Assembly: GCA_046076045.1 (NCBI GenBank)
Contig: JBJTRI010000119.1
Span: forward strand, 1,014 to 65,013
Origin: a bacterium
GTDB lineage: Bacteria > Eisenbacteria > RBG-16-71-46
Length of the DNA: 64,000 nucleotides
Reading direction: 5' to 3'
Made by a program: the position numbers and the translations under genes. Positions within the stretch are counted from its first letter, which is position 1. Every line of letters starts with the position of its first letter. Below are positions 611 through 42,340 of this stretch, piece by piece. A model generated the notes under the pieces. That model was not told where the DNA came from. It worked only from the letters and a program-made list of their open reading frames with translations, and did not search any database.

Positions 611-623
611 CCCCGAGGACCCG

Positions 624-3142: not shown

Positions 3143-3165
3143 CCGAAACGCTCGAGCCCCCACCC

Positions 3166-4764: not shown

Positions 4765-4796
4765 CGGACGCGAGGCGCGTCCCGGAGGTCTCCCCG

Positions 4797-7302: not shown

Positions 7303-8462
7303 AGGTGCTGCTCGTCGGCAGCGGTCGCGCCTTCGGCGGGACCGAGCGCGTGCTGTGGGAGCTCGCGACCGGGCTGAGCCCGTCGCGCTACGAGGTCCGC
7401 GTCTGGTTGTCGCCCGCCTCCGGCGTGGACGAACTGGCGCAGGCGCTGGAGGCGAGCGGCATCCCGGTGGACCGGGTCGCCGAGGTGGACCGGCGCAGCG
7501 ACCTGCGCGGGATGTGGGACACGTGGTCGCGCCTGCGCGCGCTGCGTCCCGACCTCGTGCATGTGCACCACGTCTGGCCCGCGGCCGATCGCTACCTCGC
7601 CCTGCTCGCGCGCGCCGCCGGCGTGCCGCACCTGGTCGTGACCGAGCACATCACCGGGAGCTCGCACTCGGCCGGTCAGCGCTGGCTCAAGCGCGACGAG
7701 TTGCGTTCGGCGTCCGCGGTGACCGCGGTGACGGGGGCGATCGTGGACACGCTGGTGCGCGACTACGGCATCGAGCGCTCGCTCGTGCGCGTGGTGCCGA
7801 ACGGGGCCGACGTGCCCGACGCCGCGCGCGAGGAACCGCTCGCGCGCCAGTGGCGCGAGCGCTACCTCGCCACCCCGATCAAGCCGTTGTGGGTGATCGC
7901 CGGTCGCATCGAGGAGCAGAAGGGGCACGACGTGCTGTTCCGCGCGCTCGCCCCGATCGTCGCGGCGGGTCTCGACTTCACGCTCGTGGTCGCGGGCGAC
8001 GGCTCGCGTCGGCGCTGGCTCGAGCAGCAGGCGATCTCGAACGGCCTCTCGCCGCGCGTGCAGTTCGTGGGGCAGGTGGACGACATCGGACCGTTGCTCG
8101 CCGCCGCCGACACCGTGCTGCTGCCGTCGCGCTGGGAGGGACTGCCGCTCGTGCTGCTCGAGGCCATGGCGCGCGCACGACCCATCGTGGCGTCCGCGGT
8201 CGGTGGCATCACCGACGTGATCGAGGACGGCGTCACCGGGACGCTCGTGCCGCCCGACGACGTCCCCGCGCTGAGCGCCGCGTTGGAGCTGGCGCACCGC
8301 AAGTCCGACCGCGCCATGCGCATCGGGCGCGCCGCCGCGCAGTGCGTGCGCGAGCGCTACACGTGGGGGGCGGTGGTCTCGGAGTTCGAGGCCGTGTACG
8401 ACGAGGCCGTCGGCGCAGCGAGCGTGACGCCCGAGCGTCCCCCCGCCGGCGGCGCACGATGA
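7281..8462 (+). CDS. Glycosyltransferase family 4/1
   Basis: The internal ATG at 7281 (MRAAARVKVLLVGSG...) gives a typical GT4 N-terminus. It overlaps the previous stop, and the TGA at 8460 overlaps the next start. Confidence 0.75.
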   Translation: MRAAARVKVLLVGSGRAFGGTERVLWELATGLSPSRYEVRVWLSPASGVDELAQALEASGIPVDRVAEVDRRSDLRGMWDTWSRLRALRPDLVHVHHVWPAADRYLALLARAAGVPHLVVTEHITGSSHSAGQRWLKRDELRSASAVTAVTGAIVDTLVRDYGIERSLVRVVPNGADVPDAAREEPLARQWRERYLATPIKPLWVIAGRIEEQKGHDVLFRALAPIVAAGLDFTLVVAGDGSRRRWLEQQAISNGLSPRVQFVGQVDDIGPLLAAADTVLLPSRWEGLPLVLLEAMARARPIVASAVGGITDVIEDGVTGTLVPPDDVPALSAALELAHRKSDRAMRIGRAAAQCVRERYTWGAVVSEFEAVYDEAVGAASVTPERPPAGGAR

Positions 8463-9436
8463 GACTGGGCGTGGTGATCCCCTGCCACCGGCAGGAGCGC
8501 TTCCTGCCGCGCACGCTCGCCGCACTCGAGCACGCGCTCGCCGGTCGCGAGTGGGCGGGCGTGCTGGTGCTCGCCTCGCCGGGGGCCGACGCCGACCTGC
8601 TGCGCGTACCCGCGGGCTGGCGCGTGCTGCGCGCGACCGGGCCCGCCGACGCCGCTCCGCTCACGCCGGGTGCGGCGCGCAACGCCGGGTTCGCGGCGTG
8701 CGGGGGCGACTGGGTGCTGTTCGTGGACGCCGACGTCGAGGTGGAGCGCGCCTGGCTCGAGCGCGCCTGCGACGAGGCGCGACGCGACCCCGAGCTCGCG
8801 GGTTCGTGGGGGCGCATCGAGGAGTGGTTCGTGGACGGGGCGGGGGAGCGGCCGGGCGTGCGCGACCTGTACCGCGTCGGCGACGCCGACGCCGAGGCGC
8901 GCTACACCGCCACGCTGTCGTTCTACCGCCGCGCCGCGCTCGAGGGCGTGGGCGGCTACGACCCGTCGCTCCACAGCGAGGAGGACTTCGAGCTCGGCCT
9001 CCGCCTGCGGCTCGCCGGGCTCCGCATGCGAACGCTCGCACCGCTCGCGGCGCGCCACTGGAGCGGCCCGCGCCCGAGCTTCGCCGAGGTCGGGCGGCGC
9101 TGGCGCACCGGGCTGTGCCTGGGGTCGGGCGAGGCGTTGCGCGCCTACCTCGGGCGTGCGGGCTTCGGTGAACTCGTCGCGCGCAACGCGCACTACGGCG
9201 CCATGCTCGTGCTCGCCCTCGCGGCCCCGGTCGCGGTCGGGCTCGCGGGCGCGCGCGGCCTCGCGGGGTGGGCGCTCGCCCCGCTCGCGCTGCTCGCGCT
9301 CATGACCGTGCGCAAGCGCAGCGCCCGTCTCGCGCTGCACTCGATCGTGACGTGGTCGGTGATGGCCGCGGGTCTGGTCGCGGGGTTCGTGCGCGGCGGG
9401 GCGGCGGCACCCGCGCCCGTCGAGGAGGTCGCGTGA
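8459..9436 (+). CDS. Glycosyltransferase family 2 with C-terminal TM helices
   Basis: Starts MRLGVVIPCHRQERFL (GT2 N-terminal motif) and has DAD and ED-like motifs. Its ATGA overlap joins it to the upstream gene. Confidence 0.75.
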   Translation: MRLGVVIPCHRQERFLPRTLAALEHALAGREWAGVLVLASPGADADLLRVPAGWRVLRATGPADAAPLTPGAARNAGFAACGGDWVLFVDADVEVERAWLERACDEARRDPELAGSWGRIEEWFVDGAGERPGVRDLYRVGDADAEARYTATLSFYRRAALEGVGGYDPSLHSEEDFELGLRLRLAGLRMRTLAPLAARHWSGPRPSFAEVGRRWRTGLCLGSGEALRAYLGRAGFGELVARNAHYGAMLVLALAAPVAVGLAGARGLAGWALAPLALLALMTVRKRSARLALHSIVTWSVMAAGLVAGFVRGGAAAPAPVEEVA

Positions 9437-10605
9437 GGGTGCACCTCGCCTGCGACAACGACATCCACCCGCCGATGTTCGGCGCGACGCAGCGCCTGTT
9501 CGGACTCGCGCGCGGGCTCGCGACGCGGGCCGAGGTGGAGGCGTTGTGCGTCGTGCCCGCCCGCAGCGCTGGCGCGCCCGACGAGCGTGTGGCCGGGGTC
9601 GCGCTGCACCGGCGCAAGGCCCCGCACACGAGCGTGGCGTGGTGGCTGCAGCGCGCCCGCGTCGCGCCGTCGTTCACGAGCGCGTGGGGGCATCGCGCCA
9701 ACGCGGCCGCGTACCGGCGCACGCTCGGTGCGCCCGCCGACGTGCTCGTGTGCGACCTCGCGCTCACCGGCCTGTTCGAGGGCGCGCCCGAGACCGTGCG
9801 CGCCTACCACGCGCACAACGTCGAGGCCCGCCTGTGGCCGCAGACCGCGCCGCCGGTGTGGGGGCGCGCGGCCTGGGCGCGGCGACTCGAGGACCTCGAG
9901 CGCCGTGCGGTCGCCAACAGCGACCTGTGCGTGGCGTGCACCGACGAGGACGCCGAGGCCCTGCGCGCGATCCACGGGGCGCGCGACGTCGAGGTGGTCC
10001 CGAACGGTTACGACGAGACCGCGCTCGCGCCCGCCTCGACCGAGGCCCGCGCGCGCGCCCGCCAGGCGCTCGGCATCGCCCCCGACGCCTATGTGGCGGC
10101 GTTCGTGGGCGGGGACTGGGGCCCCAACCACGATGCCGTGGCGTGGCTCGTGCGCGAGGTGGGGCCGCGGCTGGCCTCCGACGGCGGCGTGCTGCTCGTG
10201 GTCGGCGCGTTCGCGCGCCGGCTCGCGGACCGCCGCGAGCCGTGGCTCGTGACCCGTCCCGAGACGCCCGAGCTCGCCGCCGTGCTCGCCGCCGCCGACG
10301 CCGGGCTGAACCCGGTCGCGAGCGGGGGCGGGAGCAACGTCAAGGTGCCCACCTACCTCGCCTGCGGGCTCGCCGTGGTCTCGACCGCGTTCGGCGTGCG
10401 CGGCTATGCGCCGCTCGCACCCGCGGTCACGGTCGTGCCGCTCGACGGCGTCGCCGACGCGCTGCGCGCGCGTCCGCGCGGTTGGGCGGCCGCCGGCACC
10501 GCAGCGCCGAGCGCGCTCGCGGGCTACGCGTGGGGCGCGCTCGGAGCCGGGCTCGCCGACGCGTTCGCCGCACGCCTCGCCGTGCGCCGACGGGGGGTGG
10601 CGTGA
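9433..10605 (+). CDS. Glycosyltransferase family 4
   Basis: GTG start overlapping the previous stop (GTGA). GT-B fold with conserved C-terminal glycine-rich region. Confidence 0.7.
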   Translation: MRVHLACDNDIHPPMFGATQRLFGLARGLATRAEVEALCVVPARSAGAPDERVAGVALHRRKAPHTSVAWWLQRARVAPSFTSAWGHRANAAAYRRTLGAPADVLVCDLALTGLFEGAPETVRAYHAHNVEARLWPQTAPPVWGRAAWARRLEDLERRAVANSDLCVACTDEDAEALRAIHGARDVEVVPNGYDETALAPASTEARARARQALGIAPDAYVAAFVGGDWGPNHDAVAWLVREVGPRLASDGGVLLVVGAFARRLADRREPWLVTRPETPELAAVLAAADAGLNPVASGGGSNVKVPTYLACGLAVVSTAFGVRGYAPLAPAVTVVPLDGVADALRARPRGWAAAGTAAPSALAGYAWGALGAGLADAFAARLAVRRRGVA

Positions 10606-11711
10606 TGCGCGTCGCGATGATCGGGCAGAAGGGCATCCCCGCGACCTACGGGGGCATCGAGCGGCACGTCGACGAGATCGCACGCCGGCTCGTGGACCTG
10701 GGCATCGACGTGGACGTGTTCTGCCGCCTCTACTACACGCCGCCCGGTACCGAGTACCACAACATCGGTCTGCTCCGTCGGCCGAGCATCCACACCAAGC
10801 ACCTCGACACCGTGACGCACGTGGCGTGGGCGACCGCCGAGGCCATGCTCAAGCGCTACGACGTCGTGCACTTCCACGCCCTCGGGCCCGCGCTGTTCTC
10901 GGGGCTGCCGCGGCTCACGGGGTCGCGCAGCGTGGTGACCGTGCACGGGCTCGACTGGCAGCGCGAGAAGTGGGGGCGGTTCGCGTCGTGGGCGCTGCGG
11001 CGCTGCGAGGGTCCGGCCGCGCACTTCCCCGACCGCACGATCGTGGTGAGCAAGACGCTGCGCGAGCACTTCAAGCACGAGCACGGCGTGGACACCGAGT
11101 ACATCCCGAACGGTACGCACCTGCCGCAGCCGCGCGCCCCGCGCAAGCTGGCCTCGCTCGGACTCGAGCCCGGCAAGTACGTGCTGTTCGTGGGCCGACT
11201 CGTGCCCGAGAAGGGCGTGCACTTCCTGTGCGAGGCGTTCAGCCGCATCGACACCGACCTCAAGCTGGCGCTCGTGGGTGGGCTGTCGTTCTCGCAGGAC
11301 TACGTGAACCTGCTGCGGCGCTACGAGAGCGATCGCATCCGTCTGCTCGACTACGTGTTCGGGGAGTCGCTCGAGGAGCTGTGGAGCAACGCCTACTGCG
11401 TCGTGCAGCCCTCGACCATGGAGGGGCTCTCGATCGCGCTGCTCGAGGCGTTGTCGTACGGCCGCTGCGTGCTCGTCTCGGACATCCCCGAGAACATGGA
11501 GGTGGCCGAGGAGTGCGCGCTGCCGTTCCGCAGCAAGGACGTGGACGACCTGCAGGCGAAGCTCGAGCACCTCATCCGTCATCCCGACGAGGTCGCGGCC
11601 TACGGCGCGCGCGCCCGGGCCCACATCCAGCAGCATTACTCGTGGGACAACGTCGCGGAGTCCACCGCGCTCCTCTACGAGCGCCTGACCGGGAAGTCGC
11701 GACGCGGATGA
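10605..11711 (+). CDS. Glycosyltransferase family 4
   Basis: MRVAMIGQKGIPATYGGIERHV N-terminus and EGLSIALLEALSYGRCVLVSDIPEN C-terminal motif. Its start overlaps the previous stop (TGATG). Confidence 0.85.
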   Translation: MRVAMIGQKGIPATYGGIERHVDEIARRLVDLGIDVDVFCRLYYTPPGTEYHNIGLLRRPSIHTKHLDTVTHVAWATAEAMLKRYDVVHFHALGPALFSGLPRLTGSRSVVTVHGLDWQREKWGRFASWALRRCEGPAAHFPDRTIVVSKTLREHFKHEHGVDTEYIPNGTHLPQPRAPRKLASLGLEPGKYVLFVGRLVPEKGVHFLCEAFSRIDTDLKLALVGGLSFSQDYVNLLRRYESDRIRLLDYVFGESLEELWSNAYCVVQPSTMEGLSIALLEALSYGRCVLVSDIPENMEVAEECALPFRSKDVDDLQAKLEHLIRHPDEVAAYGARARAHIQQHYSWDNVAESTALLYERLTGKSRRG

Positions 11712-11760
11712 CGCCCCGCCGTGGCGCCCCGCGAGGCGCTGTGCTAACCCTTGAGGTCGC

Positions 11761-12822
11761 ATGACGACCCCGACCCGATCGCGTGGTGCGCTCATCCTGG
11801 CCGGTGGCCGGGGCGAGCGATTCTGGCCCTGGAGCACGCCGGAGCGGCCCAAGCAGTTGCTGCCGCTCGCCTCGGGCGGGCGCACGCTGCTCGCGGCCAC
11901 GTTCGCGCGCGCGACCCGGCTGGTGCCCGCCGAGTGCGTGGTCGTCATGACCGCGGCCCCGCTCGTCGAGGCCTGTCGGCGCGAGTGCCCGGGCGCGATC
12001 GTGGTGGGTGAGCCGGTGGGTCGCAACACCGCACCCGCGATCGCCGCGGCCGCCGCGTTCTTCGCCCCCGACACCGCGTTCGCGGTCCTGCCGTCGGACC
12101 ACGCCATCGACGACGAGGCGGCGTTCACCGCCGACCTCGACCGCGCCTTCGAGGTCGCCTCGCGCGACCCGCTGCTCGTGACCTTCGGCATCCGGCCCGC
12201 GACGCCCGACACCGGGTTCGGGTACGTCGAGCGCGGGGCGCCGCTCGCGCCGCGCCTGCACCGCGTCGCGCGCTTCACCGAGAAGCCCGACCTCGAGCGC
12301 GCACAGGCCTACCTCGCCGGCGGCCGACACATGTGGAACAGCGGCATGTTCGTGTGGAAGCGCCGCACCTTCATGAACGCGCTCGCGCAGGGTCGGCCGG
12401 CGATCGCCGACGCGTTCGAGGACTGGGCGTACGGTCCCGGCGACGAGCATGCGTTCGAGGCCGCGCTGGCTGCGCGGTTCGTCGACATGGAGTCGGTGTC
12501 GGTGGACTACGCGGTGCTCGAGGTGGCGTCCAACGTGGTCGTGCTCGAGGCCGCGTTCGACTGGGACGACCTCGGGGGGTGGAACGCCTGGGCGCGCCGC
12601 CAACCGGTGGACGCGCGCGGCAACGTGGCGTGGGGGCAGGCCGTGCCGGTGGACTGCGACCGCTGCGTGATCGTGGGCGACGGGGTGCCGGTGGCCCCCA
12701 TGGGGTTGTCGGACATGGTGGTGGTGACCACGCCCAACGGCACGCTCGTGTGTCGTCGCGAGGACACCGAACGCGTGCGCCGCGTCACCGAGGCGGTGCG
12801 CGCGCGACAGGGGGGAGCATGA
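11761..12822 (+). CDS. manC: Mannose-1-phosphate guanylyltransferase (ManC/CpsB-like nucleotidyltransferase)
   Basis: LILAGGRGERFWPWS...PKQLLPL N-terminal NTP-transferase motif and HMWNSGMFVW region. 353 aa. Confidence 0.75.
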   Translation: MTTPTRSRGALILAGGRGERFWPWSTPERPKQLLPLASGGRTLLAATFARATRLVPAECVVVMTAAPLVEACRRECPGAIVVGEPVGRNTAPAIAAAAAFFAPDTAFAVLPSDHAIDDEAAFTADLDRAFEVASRDPLLVTFGIRPATPDTGFGYVERGAPLAPRLHRVARFTEKPDLERAQAYLAGGRHMWNSGMFVWKRRTFMNALAQGRPAIADAFEDWAYGPGDEHAFEAALAARFVDMESVSVDYAVLEVASNVVVLEAAFDWDDLGGWNAWARRQPVDARGNVAWGQAVPVDCDRCVIVGDGVPVAPMGLSDMVVVTTPNGTLVCRREDTERVRRVTEAVRARQGGA

Positions 12823-15823: not shown

Positions 15824-17356
15824 ATGGGTTCGCCCCTGTCCATCGTCCACCTCGCGAGCGAGATGGCCCCGTTCGCCAAGGTGGGCGGGCTCGGTGACGT
15901 CGTCGCCGCGCTCGCGCGCGAGCAGGTCCGGCGCGGGCATCGCGTGGTGGTCGCACTGCCGCGCTACCGCGACCTCGTGCTGCCCGCCGGGTGGCGGCTC
16001 ACCGAGCTCGACGGCACGCTCGTGCCGTGGGGTGTGGGGCACGAGCCGGCCCGGTTCGCGATCGCCGAGGGCCCGCTCGACCAGCCCACCGTGCTGCTCG
16101 TCGAGCACGCCGGTGACCGCCGGTTCTTCGCGCGCGCGGGCTTCTACGACGACCCGGTGACGCACGAGGGCTACCCCGACAACCCCGAGCGCTTCCTGTT
16201 CTTCACGCGCGCCGCGCTCGAGGCGGTGAAGGCGTTCGGGGAGCGCTTCCACGTCCTGCACGCGCATGACCAGCAGGCGGCGTGGGCGCCGTGCTTCGTG
16301 CGCACGCACGATGCCGACGACGACGCGTTCCTCGGCACCGCGACCGTGTTCACGATCCACAACCTCGGCTACCAGGGCATCGTGGACCCGTGGGTGCTCG
16401 GGCTCGCCGGCTTCCCGCGCGGTGAGTTCCACCCGCGCAGCCCGTTCGAGTACCACGGCCGCGTGAACTTCATGAAGGTCGGCATCCTGTTCGCCGACCT
16501 CGTCTCGACCGTGAGCCCCACCTACGCGCGCGAGATCCAGACCACGGGCGAGTACGGGTTCGGGCTCGAGGGCGTGCTGCGTCGCCGCACGGGCGACGTG
16601 CGGGGCATCCTGAACGGCATCGACGACCACGACTGGGACCCGGCGCACGACCGTTGGCTGCCGGCGCACTACGACCGCGACCGACTCGACGGCAAGCGCG
16701 TCTGTCGTCGGGCGCTCGCGCTCGAGTCGGGCTTCCCGCTCGAGCCCGACTGGCCCATCGTGGGCATCGTGTCGAGGCTCGTCGAGCAGAAGGGCTTCGA
16801 CCTCATCGAAGCCGCCGAGCATGCGCTGTGCGACCTGCAGGCGCGCTTCGTCGTGCTGGGTATGGGTTCGCCGCGCTACGTGGAGCGGTTCCGCCGGCTG
16901 GCGGCCGAACGCCCGTGGCAGTGGCGGTTCGAGGGGGCGCACGACGAGGGACTGGCGCACCGCATCGAGGCCGGCGCCGACCTGTTCCTCATGCCGTCGC
17001 GCTACGAGCCGTGCGGGCTCAACCAGCTCTACTCGCTGCGCTACGGCACCGTGCCGGTGGTGCGCGCGACCGGGGGGTTGGCCGACACGGTGCGCGAGTT
17101 CGACCCGATCACGCGCGAGGGCAACGGGTTCGTGTTCGAGGGCTTCGCGCCGGACGAGATGGTCATGGCCCTGCGGCGCGCACTCGCGACGCACGGCGAG
17201 CCCGAGGCGTGGCGCGCGCTCCAGCGCAACGGCATGGCGCGCGACTCGAGTTGGCGGGCCGCGGCCGACGGCTACGACCGCCTGTACGCCGAGGCCATGG
17301 AGCGAGTGGCGCAGGGCCGCGTGCCGAGCCTCGAGAGCGTGCTCGACACCTTCTGA
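15824..17356 (+). CDS. glgA: Glycogen (starch) synthase, ADP-glucose type (GT5)
   Basis: The KVGGLGDVV motif near the N-terminus is the hallmark of GlgA. GT-B fold, 510 aa. Confidence 0.85.
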   Translation: MGSPLSIVHLASEMAPFAKVGGLGDVVAALAREQVRRGHRVVVALPRYRDLVLPAGWRLTELDGTLVPWGVGHEPARFAIAEGPLDQPTVLLVEHAGDRRFFARAGFYDDPVTHEGYPDNPERFLFFTRAALEAVKAFGERFHVLHAHDQQAAWAPCFVRTHDADDDAFLGTATVFTIHNLGYQGIVDPWVLGLAGFPRGEFHPRSPFEYHGRVNFMKVGILFADLVSTVSPTYAREIQTTGEYGFGLEGVLRRRTGDVRGILNGIDDHDWDPAHDRWLPAHYDRDRLDGKRVCRRALALESGFPLEPDWPIVGIVSRLVEQKGFDLIEAAEHALCDLQARFVVLGMGSPRYVERFRRLAAERPWQWRFEGAHDEGLAHRIEAGADLFLMPSRYEPCGLNQLYSLRYGTVPVVRATGGLADTVREFDPITREGNGFVFEGFAPDEMVMALRRALATHGEPEAWRALQRNGMARDSSWRAAADGYDRLYAEAMERVAQGRVPSLESVLDTF

Positions 17357-22802: not shown

Positions 22803-24859
22803 TCAGTGCGTGGCGAGCACGCGCAGCGAGCGCGGCGCGAGCCGGTCGTGCATCGGGTCGGGCAGCGGACGCGACTGCTCGATCGGCGTGAAGTCCTCGG
22901 GCGCGGCACTCGCGGTGTCGGCGATGAGGTGCCAGTGGCCGCCGCGCCCGGGCTCGGGCGTGGTGAAGTGCTGCGGTTGGGCCGTCCCGTTCACCTGCAG
23001 CAGGAAGTCCGGGTCGCCGTCGCCGTGCACGTGCATCTGCAGCATGAGGCCACCCGCGTCCCAGTCGGGCGGGCCGAGGATCGGACCGTGCCAGCTCACG
23101 CCGTCGGCGCCGGTCGAGCGGTACCAGCCCTCGCCGCGCAGCACCTTGTACTCGCGCCGCAGTCGCATGAGGCCCGCCACGAAGCGCTGGAACGCGGCCT
23201 CGTCGGGGCTGGCGTCCCAGTCGAGCCACCACGCCGGGCCGTCGTGGCACCACGCGTTGTTGTTGCCGCGCTGCGAGCGCAGGCGATCGTCGCCCCACAG
23301 CCAGAGCACCGCGCCGCGCGACAGCAGGGTGAGGGCGGCGGCGTTGCGCGCCTGACGCAGGCGCACGCCGAGCACCGCCGGGTCGTGCGTCGGGCCCTCG
23401 GCGCCCCCGTTCCAACTGCGGTGGTGGTCGCTGCCGTCGCGTTCCTGCTCGCCGTTCGCGAGGTTGTGCTTGCGCTCGTGGCTCACGAGGTCGGCGAGCG
23501 TGAAGCCGTCGTGGCAGGTCACGAAGTTCACCGAGTGCCCCGGGCGCCGGTCGGGCGCGAACCGGTCGGAGGAGCCGCCGAGCCGGGTGGCGAGCGCGCC
23601 GGGGCACCGCCGTGCCCGCGCAGCCAGTCGCGCACGTCGTCGCGGAAGTGGTCGTTCAACTCGGCCCACCGGCCGTGGTGCGGGAAGCGGCCGCCGTGGT
23701 ACACGCCGGTGTCCCACGGCTCGGCGATGAGCTTGCAGTGCGCGAGCAGCGGGTCCTCGGCGATCGCGCGCACGAGCGGCGGGTCGGCGAGCGGGGTGCC
23801 GTCGGGGCCGCGCGTGAGCGTCGAGGCGAGGTCGAAGCGGAACCCGTCCACGTGCATCTCGTGCGCCCAGAACCGCAGCGCGTCGAGCACCATGCGCGAG
23901 CCGTGCTCCGAGGCGCACGCGAACGTGTTGCCGCAGCCGGTGTGGTCGCGGTCGCGCCCGTCGGCGTCGAGCAGGTAGTAGCTCGCGCGGTCGAGCCCGC
24001 GCCAACTGCGCGGCGGTTCGGTGCGTGAGCCCTCGCCAGTGTGGTTGAACACCACGTCCAGGATGACCTCGAGCCCGACGCGGTGCAGCGCGCGCACCAT
24101 GTCGCGGAACTCCCGCAACGCCCCGGCCGCGGTGGCGTCGGCGGCGTACGCGGTGCGCGGCGCCATGAACGCGAGCGGCGCGTAGCCCCAGACGTTGAGC
24201 AGCGGCTCGCCCGTGAGCGGGTTCGTGCGCGGGTTGTCGGTCTCGTCGAACTCGGCGACCGGCATGAGCTGCACCGCCGTGAAGCCCATCGCGGCCAGCC
24301 ACCCGGCCTTCTCCGCGAGGCCCGCGAACGTGCCGGGGTGCGCGACGCGCGAGCTCGGGTGCGCGGTGAACGCACGCACGTGCGTCTCGTGGATCACGGT
24401 GTCGCCGAGCGGCGTGCGCGGCGCGCGGTCGTCGCCCCAGTCGTAGGCCAGGTCCACCACGACCGAGCGCAGCACGCGCGGGCCGCCGCGCTCGGGTCGC
24501 TCGCCCCAGCGCTCGGAGCCCGCCACGCCGTGCGCGTACGGGTCGAGCAGGAGGGCGTCGGGGTCGAACGCGTGCTCGGGACCGCGCACGTCGGAGTCGG
24601 AGCGCCACGCGTACTCGGCGCCTGCGGCGAGCCCGGGTACGAACGCGTGCCAGACGTCGCCGGTGCGGTGGCGCGCCGGGGCGAGCTCGAACTCGCGTAC
24701 CGCGCGGCCGCCGGGTGCGAACAACGCGAGCGTCAGACGCGTGGCGTGGCGCGAGACGACCGCGAAGTTCACGCCAGCCCGCGTGAGCGTGGAGCCGAGC
24801 GGCTCGGCGGAGCCGGGCTCGACGCTCAGCGCACTCGGGGGCGGGACGGGATCGGCCAT
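22803..24859 (-). CDS. glgX: Glycogen debranching enzyme GlgX / isoamylase (GH13), reading frame interrupted by an apparent 1-nt frameshift near 23590-23600
   Basis: Two overlapping minus-strand ORFs (23528..24859 and 22803..24608) together give a colinear GlgX: N-terminal CBM48-like region, catalytic GH13 motifs (GFRFDLAS, EPWD) and C-terminal domain. The shift sits in a CCCC/GGGG run inside GHGGAP/PGALATRLGGSSD. Confidence 0.7.
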
Positions 24860-25539: not shown

Positions 25540-26175
25540 TCAAATCCCGCCTGCGCGCCCGGCGAGTGCCGCGCGCGCGGTCGGCAGCAGGGTGTCGGCC
25601 CACTCGGCGTAGGCGCGGCCGCCGGGATGGAGCAGGTCCTCGGCCAGGTAGGCGGGGTCGCCGCCGTGGCGGCGCGAGTGCGCCGTGACGTCCACCCAGT
25701 GCGCGCCGATCGCGCGCACGCGCTCGTGCTGCGCGGCGTTGAGCGCGTCGATCTCGCGTGCGATGCGCGCCCGGTCGCGGCCGGCCGCGTACGGCGTCGC
25801 ACCCCAGTCGGGGATGGAGACCGCGACGACGCGCGCCGGCTGGTCCCCCGCGAGCGCGACGGCGCGCGCGAGGGCGCGGACGTGGTCGGCGAGGGTGTTC
25901 GCGGGGTCGAGCCCGCGGTACTGGTCGTTGACGCCGATGAGCAGGGTCACGAGCGCGTGCCGACCGCCATCGGGCCACACGCCCTCGCGCTCCATCGCGC
26001 CCAGCATCTCGGCCACGGTCCAGCCGGTGCGCGCGACGATGCGCGGCTCGGCGACCGGCATGCCGCCCGCGGTGAGCGCGCGCGCGAGGCGCACGGGCCA
26101 GCGCTCGGCCGGGGTGACGCCCTCGCCGATCGTGTACGAGTCGCCGAGGGCCAGGAACGGGGCGGGTTCGCTCAT
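25540..26175 (-). CDS. SGNH/GDSL-family hydrolase
   Basis: N-terminal LALGDSYT (GDS block I), GVNDQ (block III) and a C-terminal DxxH-like block. 211 aa. Confidence 0.7.
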
Positions 26176-26218
26176 GCGGCGAGCGTAGCGTGCGCGCCGC
26201 CCGCCCGCATCCGCGCCC

Positions 26219-26833
26219 TCAGGCCGCGCGCGCGTCGAGCCCCGGGTTGCCGTGGCCCTCGAGCTGGCCCGTCTCGCGCAGACGGATGAAGGCGTCCACC
26301 ACCTCGGGGAAGAACTGCGTGCCGCGGTGGCGCTGCAACTCGGCGCACGCCTCGTCGGCGGGCAGGCCATGGCGGTAGGGGCGCTCCTCGGTCATCGCGT
26401 CGTAGGCCGCGCACACCATCACGATGCGCGCCCCCATGGGGATCGCCTCGCCCGTGAGCCCGCGCGGGTAGCCGCGCCCGTCGGGGCGTTCGTGGTGCGC
26501 GTGCACGATCGCCGCGACCTCGCCGAGTCCGGGGACACCGCACAGCATCTCCCAGCCCACGGTGGGATGTGTGCGCACCGCCGCGACCTCGTCGGGGTCG
26601 AGCGGGCGCGGACTCTGCACGACGTCGTTGAGGAGCGCGTGCCGCCCGAGGTCGTGCAGACGCGCGCCCATCTCGATCGCCCACAGGTCGGTGGCGGGCA
26701 CGCCGAGCTCGCGCGCGATCGCGAGCGACCAGCGCGCGATGCGCGCCGAGCGACCGCGCGTGTGCGGGTCCGCGGCGTCGATGACGTGCGTGAGCGCACG
26801 CACGAGCGGGAGTAGCGCGGGATCGGGTCTCAT
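26219..26833 (-). CDS. Stand-alone HD-GYP domain protein (putative c-di-GMP phosphodiesterase)
   Basis: HD motif (ARLHDLGR) and HHERPDGRGYPRGL (HD-GYP signature). GGAGG lies 6 nt upstream of the ATG. 204 aa. Confidence 0.75.
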   Translation of the reverse strand: MRPDPALLPLVRALTHVIDAADPHTRGRSARIARWSLAIARELGVPATDLWAIEMGARLHDLGRHALLNDVVQSPRPLDPDEVAAVRTHPTVGWEMLCGVPGLGEVAAIVHAHHERPDGRGYPRGLTGEAIPMGARIVMVCAAYDAMTEERPYRHGLPADEACAELQRHRGTQFFPEVVDAFIRLRETGQLEGHGNPGLDARAA

Positions 26834-26867
26834 CGGGGGCCTCCGGTCGGGTGGTGGAGGGCGGGCG

Positions 26868-27926
26868 TCATGCCGCCTCCGAGGTCGCGCGCGCGGCGAG
26901 CGCGCCCGGGTCCAGTGCATGGCGGAACGCCTCGGCGCGGTGGATCGCGCCGGTGCGTACGAGTTCGAGCAGGGCCGCGTCGAGCGAGGCCAGCGTGGTG
27001 GCCGGGGTCGCGAGTGCGAGGCCGCGCGTGCCGGCGCCGACCGTGCTCGTCGTAGGCGGGGCGAGCGCGGCGTCGGCCACCAGTCGTCGGCCGCTGCCGT
27101 CGGCGTGCCGCACGAGGCGCTGGGTCACGACCATGCGCAGGTGGCTCGCCAATCGTGCGCGTGCCGCATCGCGGCGCGCGGGCGCATGCGCGCTCACGAG
27201 GCGATCGACCGCGTGCGTGGCATCGGGTGCGTCGAGCGCGCCCAGCACGAGCGTGCCGGCGGCCGCGAGTTCGAGTGCGGCCGCCGCGGCAGCCGGCTCG
27301 TGCAGGTCGGCGAGCAGCACCACGTCGGCGTCGGCGCGCATGGCGTCGCGCACCGCGTCCTCGAGGCTCGGCGCGTGCGTGCCCACCTCGCGCTGACCCA
27401 TCGCGCACTGCAGCGGGACATGGCGGTGCTCGATCGGGTCCTCGATCGTCACGATGCGCCCGCGCCGCGTCTGGTTGAGGTGGCGCACCAGCGCCGCGAG
27501 CGTCGTCGAGCGTCCCGAGCCGTGCGGTCCGGTCACCACCACCAGACCCGAGTCGAGCGCGAGCACGGCGGGCACGAGTGCGGGCAGGGACAGCGCGGCG
27601 AGCGTCGGCGGTTCGGCCGGGAGCGGGCGGAGTGTCGCGGCGACACCCGCGGCGTGCCGCACCACCGTCACGCGGAACCGGCCCGCGGTCGAGTCGTCGA
27701 ACGCACCCACCGCACGCACGCCGGCATGGGCGCGCTCGAGCAGGGCGTCGGGCAGGCGCGCGGCGAGCCACGCCACGACCTCGCCCGCGATCACGGGGTC
27801 CGAGCCCCACGCCACCGCACGACCGTGCTGGCGCACGCGCGGCAGGTCGCCGTCGCTCAGGTGCAGGTCGGAGACGCCCTCGGTCGCGGCGCGTGCGAGC
27901 AGCGCGTCGAGGCGGTGCGTGCTCAT
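26868..27926 (-). CDS. PilT-like type IV pilus retraction ATPase family protein (Walker A intact, catalytic Glu and His-box residues substituted)
   Basis: ASDLHL N-terminal motif, Walker A GPHGSGRSTT, Asp box IEDPIE. The Walker B/catalytic region is DVVLLADLHE where PilT has DVILVGEMRD, and the His box GTLHT is replaced by GALDA. ATGA overlap with the upstream paralog. Confidence 0.8.
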   Translation of the reverse strand: MSTHRLDALLARAATEGVSDLHLSDGDLPRVRQHGRAVAWGSDPVIAGEVVAWLAARLPDALLERAHAGVRAVGAFDDSTAGRFRVTVVRHAAGVAATLRPLPAEPPTLAALSLPALVPAVLALDSGLVVVTGPHGSGRSTTLAALVRHLNQTRRGRIVTIEDPIEHRHVPLQCAMGQREVGTHAPSLEDAVRDAMRADADVVLLADLHEPAAAAAALELAAAGTLVLGALDAPDATHAVDRLVSAHAPARRDAARARLASHLRMVVTQRLVRHADGSGRRLVADAALAPPTTSTVGAGTRGLALATPATTLASLDAALLELVRTGAIHRAEAFRHALDPGALAARATSEAA

Positions 27927-29017
27927 GCGGCCCTCCGCTCGTCCTGCGCCAGCGCGAGTAGGGCGGGGCGCGTGACGAACGGCGCGAGGCTGCCGCGGTC
28001 GTCCGCACGCAGGAACGCGTCGTCGGGGTCGGCGTCGCCCGCGCGCACGAGTGCGACGAGCGCGTGGTCCATGAGCTGCATGCCGAGCCGACGCCCGGCG
28101 GCGATCGCCCCCGGCAGTTGCGCGCTGCGGCCCTCGAGCACGAGCGCGCGCACGGTGGGCGTGCCGATCAGCACCTCGTGCACCGCGACGCGTCCGCGGC
28201 CATCGGCGCGACGCACGAGTTGCTGCGACACGACGAGGCGCAACGACTCGGCGAGCGCCCGTCGCGTGCTGGGCGAGTCGGCGCCGAGGTCGGTGAGGCG
28301 TTCGAGCGTGGCCACCGCGCCGCGCGTGGGCAGCGTGGCGATGACGCGGCGTCCCGAGGTCGCGGCCGCGAGCACGGCGGCAAACATGGCGGCGTCGGGG
28401 ATGTCGTCGAGTGCAACCACGTCGTGGTCGCCGTCGCGTGCCGCGTTCAGACCGTGCACGCGCGAGGGCACGTGCGTGCCGAGCTCGCGCTGGACCACGG
28501 GGGCGACACCGGGCGCATGCAGGCACTCGATCGGGTCCTCGAGCGTGAGCACCGCGGCGCCCTCGCGATCGAGCGCGTCGCGCACCAGTGCCGCCATGGT
28601 CGTGGAGCGTCCGCTGCCGGCCGGGCCGGTCACCAGCACGAGCCCGTGGCGCGGACCGCCGGGGTCGGTGATGACGCGCGGCAGTCCGAGGTCGGCGGGG
28701 CGCGGCGGCAGCAGCGGCACGAGGCGCGACGTGCACGCGAGACCGGCCTGTTCGAGGTGCACCGAGAGCCGTGCCCGCGTGCCGTCGGCGCCGACGTGCG
28801 CGAGCCGCACCGCACCGTGCGCGGCCAGCGCGTCGCGCGCGGAGGGGGGCAGCGCCTCGCGCACCAGGTCCTCGAGCGCGGTGGCGTCGAGCGCGCGGAA
28901 CGGCACCGGCACCAGCACGCCGTCCACGCGCGCGAGCGGCGGCTGGCCGACCGTGAGGTGCAGGTCGGACGCGCCGAGCTGTCGTGCGGCGTCGTGGAAG
29001 GCGTCGATCCGGGCCAT
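27923..29017 (-). CDS. PilT-like ATPase family protein, second tandem paralog (also degenerate at catalytic Glu/His box)
   Basis: SDLHL, Walker A GPAGSGRSTT, LEDPIE. The Walker B region is DVVALDDIPD and the His-box position is ATLPT. 364 aa. Confidence 0.8.
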   Translation of the reverse strand: MARIDAFHDAARQLGASDLHLTVGQPPLARVDGVLVPVPFRALDATALEDLVREALPPSARDALAAHGAVRLAHVGADGTRARLSVHLEQAGLACTSRLVPLLPPRPADLGLPRVITDPGGPRHGLVLVTGPAGSGRSTTMAALVRDALDREGAAVLTLEDPIECLHAPGVAPVVQRELGTHVPSRVHGLNAARDGDHDVVALDDIPDAAMFAAVLAAATSGRRVIATLPTRGAVATLERLTDLGADSPSTRRALAESLRLVVSQQLVRRADGRGRVAVHEVLIGTPTVRALVLEGRSAQLPGAIAAGRRLGMQLMDHALVALVRAGDADPDDAFLRADDRGSLAPFVTRPALLALAQDERRAA

Positions 29018-29032: not shown

Positions 29033-30784
29033 CTAGGGCAGCGCGCGGAACCTCTCCAGCAAGGTCGTGGCGCTGTCGGGCCGGTCCTCGGGGTGGCGGG
29101 CCATGGTGGACGCGATGAGTCGCGACAGCTCGATCGGCACGCCGGGCACCGATTCGTGCACGGGCGGCACCGCGCCCTCGAGCACGCGGAACAGCACGTT
29201 GGCGGGGTTCGTGCCCTCGAACGCGGGGCGTCCGGTGAGGGCTTCGTGCAGCACGACGCCGAGCGAGTAGAGGTCGGAGCGCCCGTCGAGTGGCAGGCCC
29301 TCGATCTGCTCGGGCGAGATGTACTCCGGGGTGCCCACCATCATGCCGCTGCGCGTCAGGCGAGACAGGCCGTCGAGGTGCGCCGAGGCGAGCCCGAAGT
29401 CCACGATGCGGACCGCATCGCCCTCGCCCACGAGCAGGTTCCCGGGCTTGAGGTCGCGGTGCAGCACGCCGGCCTCGTGCGCGGCGGCCAGTCCCTCGAG
29501 CGCCTGTTCGGCGATGCGGCGCACGCGTGCCGGCGACAGCGGACCGTCCTCGTGCAGGACGCGGCCGAGGTCGCGGCCGTCGAACCACTCCATCGAGATG
29601 GCGTGCGAGTCGCCGAGGTCGAGCAGGTCGTGGATGCGGATCACGTTCGGGTGCACGATGCGGCGCGCGAGCTTCATCTCGCGCACGAACCGGCGCAGCG
29701 TCTCGGGGTCGCGCGAGAGTTGCGGCGCGAGCACCTTGAGCACGACCTCCTCGTGCACGAGCAGGTCCTCGGCGCGGTACACCGTGCCGAAGCCGCCCGA
29801 GCCGATGCGGCTCACGACCCGGAACCGGCTCGCGAGCACGGTGCCGGGAGAGAGCCGCGCGAGGTCGAGGCCACGCGGGCCCTCGGCGGCGGCGGGCGCA
29901 CCCGCCCCGGTCCCGGACGGGCGCAGGCGCTCCCACTCCCGGGCCGGGGTGGGCGAGGCGGGCGAAGCGGGGCGCGTCACGCCGGCCGTGGCCAGCGCGC
30001 GCGCGATCGCGTCGCGCGTCGTGGCGGGCAGGTCGCGCGCGGCGAGCGCGTGCAGTGCGTCGGCGGCGCGCTCGCGCACCCACCAGTCCTCGTCGCGGAG
30101 CGCTCCGGCGAGGGCCGGCACCGCGCGCTCGTCGGGCGAGGCGTTGAGGATCTCGGTCGCGTAGCGGCGCGTGAACGGGTCGGGGTCGTGCAGCAGTTCG
30201 AGCACCGCGTCGGTGACGCCGGGGCCGCCGAGCGCACCGAGCGCCTCGGCGGCGCGGGCGCGCAGTCGGCCGTCGGCCAGACGCAGCGCCTCGGCGAGTT
30301 CGCGCACGCGTTCGGGAGAGCGCACGCCGACGAGCGCGTGCACCGCGGCCTCGCGCACCGCCTCGGACTCGTCCTCGAGCGCACGCAACCACTCGGCGGC
30401 GGGCACGCGCGCGGCCTGCGCGGTGAGCGCGAGGTCGAGCCGGGCACGCGCGACGCGTTCGTCGCGGTAGAGCGGGAGCAGCGCGCGCGGGTCCCAGGTC
30501 GCGCTCGAGGCGAGCGCGCGTGCGGCCGCATCGGCGACCGGGGCGACCGGGGAGCGGAGCGCGTCGGCGAAGTCGCCGAACGTCTCCGGTCGCACGAGGC
30601 CCGAGAGCGTGGCGAGCATCGCGGGGGTGGCGGGCCGCGCCGCGACCGCGTCGAGGAGCGCACGCGCCGCGGGCGCTCCAGCGGCGAGCAGGTCGGCCTG
30701 CGCCTCGGCGAGCGCATCCGGGCCGGCGCCCGACTGCAGCAGTCGGACGTGGTGCTCGGTGCGGAGGCGGTTCGCGTCGCTCAT
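29033..30784 (-). CDS. Ser/Thr protein kinase with N-terminal HEAT/PBS-lyase-type repeats
   Basis: The C-terminal Hanks kinase domain has FGTVYRA, VLK, HRDLKPGNLL, DFGLA and GTPEYISPE motifs. The N-terminal 300 aa carry repeated HEAT-like motifs (VREAAVHALVG...RARAAEALGALG...WVRERAADAL). Confidence 0.8.
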   Translation of the reverse strand: MSDANRLRTEHHVRLLQSGAGPDALAEAQADLLAAGAPAARALLDAVAARPATPAMLATLSGLVRPETFGDFADALRSPVAPVADAAARALASSATWDPRALLPLYRDERVARARLDLALTAQAARVPAAEWLRALEDESEAVREAAVHALVGVRSPERVRELAEALRLADGRLRARAAEALGALGGPGVTDAVLELLHDPDPFTRRYATEILNASPDERAVPALAGALRDEDWWVRERAADALHALAARDLPATTRDAIARALATAGVTRPASPASPTPAREWERLRPSGTGAGAPAAAEGPRGLDLARLSPGTVLASRFRVVSRIGSGGFGTVYRAEDLLVHEEVVLKVLAPQLSRDPETLRRFVREMKLARRIVHPNVIRIHDLLDLGDSHAISMEWFDGRDLGRVLHEDGPLSPARVRRIAEQALEGLAAAHEAGVLHRDLKPGNLLVGEGDAVRIVDFGLASAHLDGLSRLTRSGMMVGTPEYISPEQIEGLPLDGRSDLYSLGVVLHEALTGRPAFEGTNPANVLFRVLEGAVPPVHESVPGVPIELSRLIASTMARHPEDRPDSATTLLERFRALP

Positions 30785-30827: not shown

Positions 30828-31391
30828 TCAGGGGCGCAGCCACAGGCGCACGGCGAACCACGCGAGCGTGGCGCCGAGCAGCATGCCCACGATCGTCTCG
30901 CGCACGGCCCAACGCCGCGGCGGCGGGATCTCGACCGCACCCTCGGGCGTCACGGGCGGCAGCGGGCGGCCCTTGGCCGGAGCGGTCATGCCACTCAACT
31001 CGGCGCGCGACAGCACCACCGTGTGACGCGCCGCATCGCTCGTGGTCGCGGGCGGTGCGCTCGCGCGCGGGCGGGCGCGGCGGTCGGTCTCGACCCCGAC
31101 CCACAGCGTGTACTTGCCGAACCGCACCACGTCGTTGTCGCGCACGAACGAGGCGTTGACCATCTGGTCGTTCACGAACGTGCCGTTCGCGCTGCCGAGG
31201 TCGGTGATGCGGTACTCACCCGGCGCGGTGCGCTCGATGCGGAAGTGGTCGCGCGACACGCCCGGGTTGTCCACGAACACGTCGGCCTCGGGATCGCGCC
31301 CCACGCTCACGACGTCCTGGTCGAACGTGTAGTTGCGAACCGGTCGTCCCATGAGGGACAGGCGGAGCTTGAGGATCTGCCCATCGGCCAT
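30828..31391 (-). CDS. FHA domain protein with C-terminal transmembrane anchor
   Basis: FHA core (VSVGRDPEADVFVDNPGVSRDHFRI...GSANGTFVN) followed by a Pro-rich linker and a C-terminal TM helix (IVGMLLGATLAWFAVRLWL). GGAGG lies upstream of the ATG. Confidence 0.75.
   Translation of the reverse strand: MADGQILKLRLSLMGRPVRNYTFDQDVVSVGRDPEADVFVDNPGVSRDHFRIERTAPGEYRITDLGSANGTFVNDQMVNASFVRDNDVVRFGKYTLWVGVETDRRARPRASAPPATTSDAARHTVVLSRAELSGMTAPAKGRPLPPVTPEGAVEIPPPRRWAVRETIVGMLLGATLAWFAVRLWLRP

Positions 31392-39460: not shown

Positions 39461-42340
<2,880 letters not shown>

What the first reader, a model, noticed from the sequence alone, without database searches (positions are those of the whole stretch)
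26868..29017. Both PilT paralogs keep Walker A but have lost the catalytic Glu and the His-box histidine
Against PilT (DVILVGEMRD ... GTLHT), paralog A reads DVVLLADLHE ... GALDA and paralog B reads DVVALDDIPD ... ATLPT. The Walker B glutamate needed for ATP hydrolysis is Asp in both, and the His-box His is Asp in A and Pro in B. The N-terminal ASDLHL motif, Walker A and Asp box are conserved. This predicts ATP-binding but hydrolysis-impaired pseudo-ATPases, or enzymes with altered kinetics. That fits a regulatory role, not a motor role, and makes the tandem pair unusual.
Basis: seen in the sequence. Interest (0 to 1): 0.6.

Follow-up and report, generated by a model that had tools for sequence, protein, structure and literature searches.

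The report
Tandem PilT-like proteins without catalytic residues
Two adjacent genes encode intact copies of the pilus-retraction motor PilT in which every residue known to drive ATP hydrolysis has been replaced, yet both are still kept by selection, so they probably act as ATP-binding scaffolds or switches and not as motors.

Summary
The two genes are real: PilT-like B (27923-29017, minus strand) and PilT-like A (26868-27926, minus strand), joined by an ATGA overlap. Ungapped alignments to solved PilT structures confirm Walker B Glu204 to Asp in both, and His229 to Pro (B) or Asp (A).

The Walker A lysine is Arg in both, so Walker A is not kept. Arg206 and His222 are also gone. The P-loop glycines and Ser/Thr, the Mg-binding Glu163 and the arginine fingers remain.

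The pair sits in a five-gene block (membrane FHA protein, HEAT/Ser-Thr kinase, B, A, HD-GYP) conserved across Candidatus Eisenbacteria. Most relatives carry fully canonical motifs. Only a small high-GC sub-lineage has the Arg/Asp state, fixed in 13/13 and 12/13 sequences.

dN/dS is 0.20-0.26 and the predicted folds are intact (TM about 0.9 to PilT4), so these are not decaying genes. The same triple change arose independently in a 49% GC Kerfeldbacteria pilus operon.

Best reading: nucleotide-binding, hydrolysis-deficient pseudo-ATPases. This is unproven without biochemistry. It is a new variant of a known kind, of moderate interest.

The parts
30828..31391 (-). FHA-domain protein with a C-terminal transmembrane helix; first gene of the conserved block
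   Evidence: Pfam FHA 2e-18 and Yop-YscD_cpl 8e-12. A hydrophobic C-terminus is conserved in orthologs. Same position in L001, L002, L005 and L091.
29033..30784 (-). HEAT-repeat Ser/Thr protein kinase (start inferred from the ortholog in L005)
   Evidence: Pfam Pkinase 2e-47 and HEAT_2 2e-19. HRDLKPGN, DFG and VVLK motifs are intact.
27923..29017 (-). PilT-like paralog B, 364 aa, degenerate catalytic set
   Evidence: PF00437 at 77 bits. TIGR01420 at 242.6 bits, below the 319.1 cut-off. phmmer to PilT 5FL3 4e-49. AF2 pLDDT 90, TM 0.91 to 6OJX.
28601..28627 (-). B Walker A, GPAGSGRST; Arg137 (codon 28607-28609) replaces the invariant Lys
28526..28540 (-). B Asp box, EDPIE, with the Mg-coordinating Glu retained
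28394..28423 (-). B Walker B, DVVALDDIPD; Gly to Asp204, catalytic Glu to Asp205 (28403-28405), Arg to Pro207
28325..28354 (-). B His box, GRRVIATLPT; His222 to Arg, His229 to Pro230 (28328-28330)
26868..27926 (-). PilT-like paralog A, 352 aa, degenerate catalytic set; its start overlaps B's stop (ATGA)
   Evidence: PF00437 at 86 bits. TIGR01420 at 223.8 bits, below the 319.1 cut-off. phmmer to PilT 5ZFQ 3e-41. AF2 pLDDT 88, TM 0.89 to 6OJX.
27504..27530 (-). A Walker A, GPHGSGRST; Arg139 (27510-27512) replaces the invariant Lys
27429..27443 (-). A Asp box, EDPIE, retained
27297..27326 (-). A Walker B, DVVLLADLHE; Gly to Ala, catalytic Glu to Asp207 (27306-27308), Arg to His
27228..27257 (-). 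A His box, GTLVLGALDA; His222 to Thr, His229 to Asp232 (27231-27233)
27000..27059 (-). A residues 290-309: a low-confidence loop where PilT has the AIRNLIRE helix
   Evidence: AF2 pLDDT below 50 for residues 292-309; alignment; coordinates.
26219..26833 (-). HD-GYP domain protein (c-di-GMP phosphodiesterase type); last gene of the conserved block
   Evidence: Pfam HD_5 4e-33. HDLG and HHERPDGRGYP motifs are intact. Follows paralog A in all related loci.

Best explanation
Both genes encode full-length, correctly folded PilT-family proteins that have become pseudo-ATPases.

The nucleotide pocket is still built. The P-loop glycines, the Ser/Thr, the Mg-binding Asp-box Glu and the arginine fingers are all kept. 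A positive charge (Arg) sits at the Walker A lysine position and an acidic residue (Asp) sits at the catalytic Glu position.

Every residue that mutagenesis shows to be needed for turnover is replaced: Lys136, Glu204, Arg206, His222 and His229. The proteins most likely bind ATP and hold an ATP-bound, closed-type conformation with little or no hydrolysis.

They would then act as nucleotide-dependent scaffolds or switches inside a conserved five-gene module: membrane-anchored FHA protein, HEAT/Ser-Thr kinase, PilT-B, PilT-A and HD-GYP. In sister Eisenbacteria this module contains a catalytically canonical PilT pair.

Shown here: the substitutions, orthology with canonical pairs, a single sub-lineage origin, purifying selection, intact predicted folds and intact neighbouring enzymes.

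Inferred: ATP binding, lack of hydrolysis, and the scaffold or switch role.
For: - Ungapped alignments to solved PilT structures place Arg, Asp and Pro/Asp at K136, E204 and H229.
- Column analysis of 13 degenerate sequences against about 100 canonical orthologs. Kept in all 13: G133, G135, the Ser/Thr at positions 137-138, E159, E163, R80, R82, Q175, R176 and G221. R97 is kept in 11 of 13. Changed: K136 to R in 13/13, E204 to D in 12/13, R206 lost in all, H229 lost in all (Pro in all six B).
- Only conservative replacements are fixed at positions 136 and 204, whereas 206 and 229 drift. This argues that a phosphate-binding pocket is still selected.
- Synteny shows orthology with canonical pairs: the same FHA / kinase / B / A / HD-GYP / GDSL / MsrB / amylase order occurs in L002 and L091 (canonical) and in L001, L005, L006 and L008 (degenerate).
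- The degenerate B and A sequences each form one long-branched clade.
- dN/dS between the window and L005 is 0.20 for B and 0.26 for A, against 0.09-0.25 for neighbouring genes.
- ORFs are intact at 43-58% identity across the clade.
- AF2 gives pLDDT 90 and 88, with TM 0.91 and 0.89 to ATP-bound PilT4, 6OJX.
- Kinase HRD/DFG and HD-GYP motifs are intact in the degenerate loci.
- Published roles: the Asp-box Glu coordinates Mg, the His box contacts the gamma-phosphate, and the Glu after Walker B positions the water (PMC5424180). K136A, E204A and H229A abolish twitching (PMC10187167). R206S is a natural loss-of-function allele (PMC6762196).
- In the related RecA ATPase, K72R binds ATP with almost no hydrolysis, and E96D lowers hydrolysis without losing binding (PMC5240526).
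- ATPase-dead PilT still has a function, as an adaptor for PilU (PMC6762196, PMC6821130).
Against: - No biochemistry exists. Arg at the Walker A position can also weaken nucleotide binding.
- Constraint on both proteins is clearly relaxed. In canonical lineages B and A are the best-conserved genes of the block (75% and 71%, against 65-72% for the others). In the degenerate lineage they are the worst (58% and 44%, against 60-72%).
- A has lost the AIRNLIRE helix.
- Both score below the curated pilT_fam cut-off.
- Lys to Arg fits the extreme lysine depletion of this 74% GC genome: about 1% Lys overall, and none in A, B, the HD-GYP protein or the GDSL lipase.
- No active PilT/PilU partner or pilus machinery is visible in the 64 kb window.
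- What is scaffolded is unknown.
Confidence: 0.55

Rival explanations
1. The Arg/Asp pair is a remodelled but still working active site. Under this reading the proteins remain slow or differently regulated ATPases and still drive pilus retraction or a related translocation.
For: - Arg and Asp are the most conservative replacements possible and are strictly fixed (13/13 and 12/13).
- The same K to R, E to D and H to D set evolved independently in Kerfeldbacteria protein P0236. It uses different codons (AGA, GAT) in a 49% GC genome. P0236 occupies the PilT slot between a canonical PilB and PilC in a complete pilus operon, found on 20 contigs.
- Other PilT-like families combine K with E204D and H229N/P/Q.
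Against: - Five residues are lost at once, including Arg206 and both histidines.
- K to R and E to D cut hydrolysis drastically in RecA (PMC5240526).
- H229A and R206S alone disable PilT (PMC10187167, PMC6762196).
- Evolutionary rate accelerated after the change.
Confidence: 0.2
2. The genes are relics decaying under relaxed selection after loss of pilus function. They are not yet disrupted and have no remaining role.
For: - Long branches and a reversed conservation rank relative to neighbouring genes.
- Scores below the pilT_fam cut-off.
- Loss of the AIRNLIRE region in A.
- No pilus genes nearby.
- A neighbouring amylase gene carries a frameshift.
Against: - dN/dS of 0.20-0.26 lies close to the upper end of the housekeeping neighbours' range.
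- Both ORFs are intact, of conserved length and translationally coupled in at least five independent assemblies spanning 43-58% identity.
- Arg and Asp are fixed rather than random.
- The predicted folds have high confidence.
Confidence: 0.12
3. The degenerate pocket has been repurposed to bind another nucleotide, such as c-di-GMP or (p)ppGpp. The proteins would then be second-messenger receptors coupled to the adjacent HD-GYP phosphodiesterase.
For: - The link to HD-GYP is conserved, and the two genes overlap in L006, L008 and L091.
- Degenerate enzyme domains acting as c-di-GMP receptors are an established theme (own knowledge: FimX, LapD; FleQ binds c-di-GMP at its ATPase domain).
- The pocket gains arginines: B R137 and R223-R224, A R139.
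Against: - The HD-GYP linkage predates the degeneration, because canonical orthologs have it too.
- No known c-di-GMP-binding motif was identified.
- This is purely inferential.
Confidence: 0.08

Closest known systems
PilT retraction ATPases (P. aeruginosa PilT 3JVV; G. metallireducens PilT4 6OJX; T. thermophilus PilT2 5FL3)
   Same: - Full-length two-domain fold, with TM 0.89-0.91.
- 28-34% identity.
- ASDLHL motif, P-loop glycines, Asp box and arginine fingers.
- B keeps an AIRNLIRE-like helix (TVRALVLE).
   Different: - Lys136, Glu204, Arg206, His222 and His229 are all replaced.
- Both score below the curated TIGR01420 cut-off.
- No pilus genes are nearby.
- They are embedded in a kinase / FHA / HD-GYP operon.
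Canonical PilT-B/PilT-A pair of other Candidatus Eisenbacteria (P0028/P0129 in L002; P0033 and its downstream neighbour in L091)
   Same: Orthologs by synteny: same five-gene block, same gene lengths, same coupling between the two genes.
   Different: - The orthologs have K/E/E/H motifs. The A-type lacks only His222.
- They score 433-437 bits on pilT_fam.
- They are the most conserved genes of the block.
Engineered ATPase-dead PilT (K136A, E204A) in V. cholerae and P. aeruginosa
   Same: The same positions are hit. The dead protein still assembles, interacts with PilU and supports PilU-powered retraction, which shows an ATPase-independent role for a PilT ring (PMC6762196, PMC6821130).
   Different: - Those are laboratory alanine alleles paired with an active PilU.
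- Here the changes are natural and conservative (Arg, Asp).
- Both paralogs are affected, so any motor partner must lie elsewhere.
Kerfeldbacteria (CPR) PilT-slot protein P0236
   Same: Independent K to R, E to D, R206 to D and H229 to D; full-length PilT homolog (7e-74 to 2EWV).
   Different: It sits in a complete pilus operon between PilB and PilC. It keeps an AIRNLIRE-like motif and comes from a 49% GC genome. It is uncharacterised.
RecA K72R and E96D alleles
   Same: The Walker A Lys to Arg and catalytic Glu to Asp changes occur in a RecA-type ATPase core. ATP binding is kept and hydrolysis is nearly abolished or reduced (PMC5240526).
   Different: Different family. These are single engineered changes, not natural ones.
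Degenerate nucleotide-binding sites of heterodimeric ABC transporters (TAP1, CFTR NBD1) and archaellum FlaH (own knowledge, not tested here)
   Same: Natural ATP-binding, non-hydrolysing sites created by replacing the catalytic Glu and the switch His. They serve regulatory or structural roles beside an active ATPase.
   Different: Unrelated folds or families. In those cases an active partner site is always present in the same complex.

Membership tests
PilT/PilU family type IVa pilus ATPase (TIGR01420; Pfam PF00437 T2SSE) | Sequence match above the curated thresholds | tested here: inconclusive
   Pfam T2SSE is passed: 86.4 and 77.2 bits against a cut-off of 24.9. NCBIfam TIGR01420 is failed: 223.8 (A) and 242.6 (B) bits against 319.1. 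Canonical orthologs score 433 and 437.5.
PilT/PilU family type IVa pilus ATPase | Two-domain PilT fold (N-terminal domain plus RecA-like C-terminal domain) | tested here: met
   AF2 pLDDT 90.0 and 88.2. Foldseek TM 0.91 and 0.89 to PilT4 6OJX, E 8e-36 and 5e-31.
PilT/PilU family type IVa pilus ATPase | Walker A GxxGxGK[ST] with the invariant lysine | tested here: not met
   GPHGSGRST (A) and GPAGSGRST (B); Arg in 13/13 members of the clade.
PilT/PilU family type IVa pilus ATPase | Atypical Walker B Dh4GE with the catalytic glutamate, followed by the invariant Arg206 | tested here: not met
   DVVLLADLHE (A) and DVVALDDIPD (B). Glu to Asp, Arg to His/Pro, Gly to Ala/Asp.
PilT/PilU family type IVa pilus ATPase | Asp box with the Mg-coordinating Glu (EDPIE) | tested here: met
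   EDPIE in both; E163 is kept in 13/13.
PilT/PilU family type IVa pilus ATPase | His box with two histidines (H222, H229) | tested here: not met
   A has Thr and Asp; B has Arg and Pro.
PilT/PilU family type IVa pilus ATPase | Arginine fingers in the N-terminal domain (PilT R82, R97) | tested here: met
   GRFRV...TLRP in A and TRARL...TSRL in B. R82 is kept in 13/13 and R97 in 11/13.
PilT (as opposed to PilU) | AIRNLIRE motif helix | tested here: inconclusive
   B has TVRALVLE in a confident helix (residues 287-295). A has a low-confidence loop with pLDDT below 50 (residues 292-309).
PilT/PilU family type IVa pilus ATPase | Genomic or functional association with the type IV pilus machinery (PilB, PilC, PilM-Q, pilins) | tested here: not met
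   None was found in the 64 kb window or within about 8 kb in six related loci. The rest of the genome could not be examined.
PilT/PilU family type IVa pilus ATPase | Hexameric ATPase activity that powers retraction | not testable with these tools
   Needs purified protein and in vivo assays.
Pseudoenzyme (pseudo-ATPase) | Homolog of an active enzyme family with the catalytic residues replaced | tested here: met
Pseudoenzyme (pseudo-ATPase) | Maintained by purifying selection as an intact gene | tested here: met
   dN/dS 0.20 (B) and 0.26 (A) against L005. ORFs are intact across 43-58% identity.
Pseudoenzyme (pseudo-ATPase) | Lack of catalytic activity with ligand binding retained | not testable with these tools
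   Inferred only from residue roles (PMC5424180, PMC10187167, PMC5240526).

The most novel reading that the evidence does not exclude
A conserved PilT-PilT motor pair was converted as a unit, in one bacterial lineage, into two ATP-locked pseudo-ATPases. These persist under selection as components of a Ser/Thr-kinase / FHA / c-di-GMP signalling module. The same Arg/Asp/non-His state arose convergently in a CPR pilus operon. Together these would define a natural, recurrent 'non-motor' state of PilT rings, whose function is conformational signalling or docking and not force generation.
Probability: 0.3. Interest if true: 0.75.

Novelty: new variant of a known kind. Interest (0 to 1): 0.55.

Why it matters
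Whether PilT rings have functions independent of ATP turnover is an active question. Two cases are under study: PilT as an adaptor for PilU, and PilT as part of surface sensing. So far the question has been addressed only with engineered alanine mutants.

In the papers I read, all four Geobacter and all five Myxococcus PilT-family proteins keep the canonical motifs (PMC5065972, PMC13584747). Three full-text searches found no description of a naturally degenerate PilT.

This locus offers a natural experiment. Orthologous operons exist with canonical pairs and with degenerate pairs, so the non-catalytic role can be tested directly by swapping them. It also warns that automated 'twitching motility protein PilT' labels, which the public record of this very protein carries, can hide proteins that probably cannot act as motors.

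Tried and rejected
- **Mis-alignment.** I looked for an indel that could restore a Glu or His. The phmmer alignments to three PilT structures are ungapped through all motifs, so this is rejected.
- **GC pressure alone as the cause of Lys to Arg.** The genome is extremely Lys-poor. However, a DEAD-box helicase in the window keeps its Walker A Lys (AQTGSGKT). The same change also occurs in a 49% GC Kerfeldbacteria genome with an AGA codon. GC pressure may have helped but does not explain it.
- **Pseudogene decay.** Rejected as the main explanation on dN/dS and ORF integrity.
- **Genome contigs and metagenome-contig scans for more clade members.** They returned only distant PilTs, with best identities of 44% and 41%. 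No gain.
- **Profile search of 1.84 billion representatives with the degenerate B profile.** It found no further members of the clade. It did reveal tandem PilT-PilT fusion proteins, but these are generic PilT fusions and not B/A orthologs.
- **NJ tree placement of degenerate A.** The tree put it next to the B clade and P0236. I treat this as long-branch attraction, because synteny places it in the A slot.
- **Strict coupling of K136R with E204D across the family.** Not supported. R without D occurs (N-terminal halves of P0328 and P0343), and D without R occurs in several families.
Full report
**1. What is there**

The region holds two co-directional genes on the minus strand. PilT-like B is 27923-29017 (364 aa). 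PilT-like A is 26868-27926 (352 aa). The stop of B overlaps the start of A in ATGA.

Both match Pfam T2SSE (86 and 77 bits). Both align over their full length to solved PilT structures (A 3e-41 to 5ZFQ; B 4e-49 to 5FL3).

They are the third and fourth genes of a tight five-gene block:
- an FHA protein with a C-terminal membrane helix (30828-31391);
- a HEAT-repeat Ser/Thr kinase (29033-30784);
- paralog B;
- paralog A;
- an HD-GYP protein (26219-26833).

**2. Checking the observation**

The alignments to P. aeruginosa PilT are ungapped through all four motifs, so positions map one to one.

| PilT position | Role | Paralog A | Paralog B |
|---|---|---|---|
| K136 | Walker A lysine | Arg (R139) | Arg (R137) |
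| G203 | Walker B glycine | Ala | Asp |
| E204 | catalytic Glu | Asp (D207) | Asp (D205) |
| R206 | invariant Arg | His | Pro |
| H222 | first His-box His | Thr | Arg |
| H229 | second His-box His | Asp (D232) | Pro (P230) |

It was also right that ASDLHL and the Asp box EDPIE are kept.

In a sample of 487 PilT-like domains, 431 have K/E/E/H at positions 136/163/204/229. The complete Arg/Glu/Asp/non-His state is confined to this clade plus one Kerfeldbacteria protein.

**3. Where it comes from**

The closest database entries are labelled Candidatus Eisenbacteria or 'bacterium' MAGs.

Fetching contigs shows that the whole neighbourhood is syntenic across this group. The order is PIG-L, FHA, HEAT-kinase, B, A, HD-GYP, GDSL lipase, MsrB, alpha-amylase, DUF4301.
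- In L002 (66% GC) and L091 (70% GC) both PilT genes are canonical. B reads GPTGTGKST / VGELRD / GHLVLGTLHT. A reads GPTGSGKST / VGEMRD / G[IVT]xVxGTLHT.
- In the window and in L005, L001, L006 and L008 (71-75% GC) both are degenerate.

The window genes are therefore orthologs of ordinary PilT genes.

A neighbour-joining tree puts the six degenerate B sequences in one clade, sister to the canonical B clade. The seven degenerate A sequences form another clade. Both clades have long branches.

A profile search of 5.8 billion proteins found only about eight clusters of the degenerate A type. The state is rare and lineage-specific.

**4. Decay or function**

dN/dS between the window and L005 (87-90% amino-acid identity) is 0.20 for B and 0.26 for A. 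The five neighbouring genes give 0.09-0.25.

The ORFs stay intact and keep their lengths and coupling across members only 43-58% identical.

Constraint has nevertheless relaxed.
- In the canonical pair L002 versus L091, B and A are the best-conserved genes of the block (75% and 71%, against 65-72% for the others).
- Between the window and L001/L006/L008 they are the worst (55-58% and 43-47%, against 60-72%).
- Both fall below the curated pilT_fam cut-off (224 and 243 against 319 bits). The canonical orthologs score 433-437.

AlphaFold models are confident (pLDDT 90 and 88) and superpose on ATP-bound PilT4 with TM 0.91 and 0.89. The one exception is residues 292-309 of A. There the PilT AIRNLIRE helix is replaced by a low-confidence loop.

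**5. What the conservation pattern says about mechanism**

I examined 80 columns that are at least 95% conserved in both canonical clades.

All 13 degenerate sequences keep:
- the P-loop glycines G133 and G135, and the Ser/Thr at positions 137-138;
- E159 and E163 (E163 is the Mg ligand);
- R80 and R82 (R97 is kept in 11 of 13);
- Q175, R176 and G221.

They lose:
- K136, always to Arg;
- E204, to Asp in 12 of 13;
- R206, to anything;
- H229, to Pro in every B and to Asp/Pro/Ala/Ser/Thr in A.

Published structures assign these roles. The Asp-box Glu coordinates Mg. The arginine fingers sense the phosphates. The His box contacts the gamma-phosphate. The Glu after Walker B positions the attacking water (PMC5424180).

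Mutagenesis agrees. K136A, E204A and H229A abolish twitching (PMC10187167). R206S is a natural loss-of-function allele (PMC6762196).

In RecA, K72R binds ATP with almost no hydrolysis, and E96D lowers hydrolysis without losing binding (PMC5240526).

The simplest reading is a pocket still selected to hold nucleotide but no longer able to turn it over. That is an inference; nothing here measures binding or hydrolysis.

**6. Is Lys to Arg just GC pressure?**

The window proteome has about 1.0% Lys. A, B, the HD-GYP protein and the GDSL lipase have none. The drift from Lys to Arg is therefore strong.

Two facts argue against GC pressure as the whole cause.
- A DEAD-box helicase in the window keeps AQTGSGKT.
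- The same set of changes occurs independently in Kerfeldbacteria protein P0236: GPFGSGRST / ISDLDE / GAMDTD, with codons AGA and GAT, in a 49% GC genome.

P0236 lies between a canonical PilB and PilC in a complete pilus operon and was seen on 20 contigs. This convergence is the strongest hint that the Arg/Asp state is a recurrent functional state. It is also the main support for the rival view that the site may still work.

**7. Context and likely role**

No pilus machinery genes occur in the window or within about 8 kb in six related loci.

The kinase (HRD, DFG) and HD-GYP (HD, HHExxDGxGYP) motifs are intact in the degenerate lineage.

ATPase-dead PilT can still act as an adaptor for PilU. 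PilT and PilU form separate homohexamers and not mixed rings (PMC6762196, PMC6821130).

I propose that A and B are nucleotide-bound rings that serve as a docking or switch element. They would act for the FHA / kinase / HD-GYP module, or for an unidentified motor elsewhere in the genome.

**8. Comparison with the known, and novelty**

All four Geobacter PilT paralogs, and Myxococcus PilT together with its four paralogs, keep all four motifs (PMC5065972, PMC13584747). Three literature searches found no description of a naturally degenerate PilT.

The proteins belong to the PilT superfamily by fold and descent. They fail three of its defining catalytic motifs and the curated family threshold.

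I rate this a new variant of a known kind and give it interest 0.55.
- It is a clean natural counterpart to engineered dead PilT alleles, with orthologous active controls.
- Its function is unproven, and the organism is an uncultured MAG lineage.

**9. Limits**

- Only 64 kb of the genome is visible.
- The dN/dS values come from one close pair by the Nei-Gojobori method in a very GC-rich background.
- The tree is a distance tree and is affected by long branches.
- The two large contig scans were uninformative.

Noticed in passing
window 22803-24859 (minus strand), break near 23606: The CBM48/alpha-amylase (glycogen-debranching type) gene is split by a single-base deletion relative to the 685-aa ortholog in L005. 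tblastn switches from frame -1 (aa 1-420) to frame -3 (aa 420-685) at 95-96% identity. This is either a pseudogene or an assembly error.
   Followed up: partly
window 58021-64000 (+): An open reading frame of at least 1993 codons runs off the window end. It has five He_PIG Ig-like repeats and beta-propeller matches, and only one lysine. It is probably a giant surface protein.
   Followed up: partly
whole window; 25540-29017 in particular: Lysine depletion is extreme: about 1.0% Lys and 9.2% Arg over the predicted proteins. PilT-A, PilT-B, the HD-GYP protein and the GDSL lipase contain no lysine at all.
   Followed up: partly
L089 8001-9077 (Kerfeldbacteria metagenome contig): A PilT-slot gene (P0236) lies between PilB and PilC in a full pilus operon. 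It carries the same Walker A Lys to Arg, Walker B Glu to Asp and His-box His to Asp changes, in a 49% GC genome, and was seen on 20 contigs.
   Followed up: partly
proteins P0323-P0329, P0343 (representative library): Single polypeptides of about 676-741 aa contain two PilT modules in tandem. In P0328 and P0343 the N-terminal module is degenerate (Walker A GSGR). In P0328 the C-terminal module is canonical. They are not B/A orthologs.
   Followed up: partly
L002 10165-11448 versus the window, L005, L006, L008 and L091: Canonical locus L002 has an extra GAF-HD-GYP gene on the opposite strand between PilT-A and HD-GYP. It is absent from the other canonical locus (L091) and from all degenerate loci. 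The kinase is about 780 aa in canonical loci and 565-583 aa in degenerate ones, because the HEAT region is shorter.
   Followed up: no
window 1-12822 (+): There is a long polysaccharide-synthesis cluster (GT2 and GT4 glycosyltransferases, Bac_transf, UDP-glucose dehydrogenase, epimerase, mannose-1-P guanylyltransferase). It is followed by glycogen-related genes (starch synthase at 15824-17356).
   Followed up: no
window 39461-42340 (minus strand): A hybrid histidine kinase with a CHASE8 sensor, HisKA/HATPase, two receiver domains and an Hpt domain.
   Followed up: no
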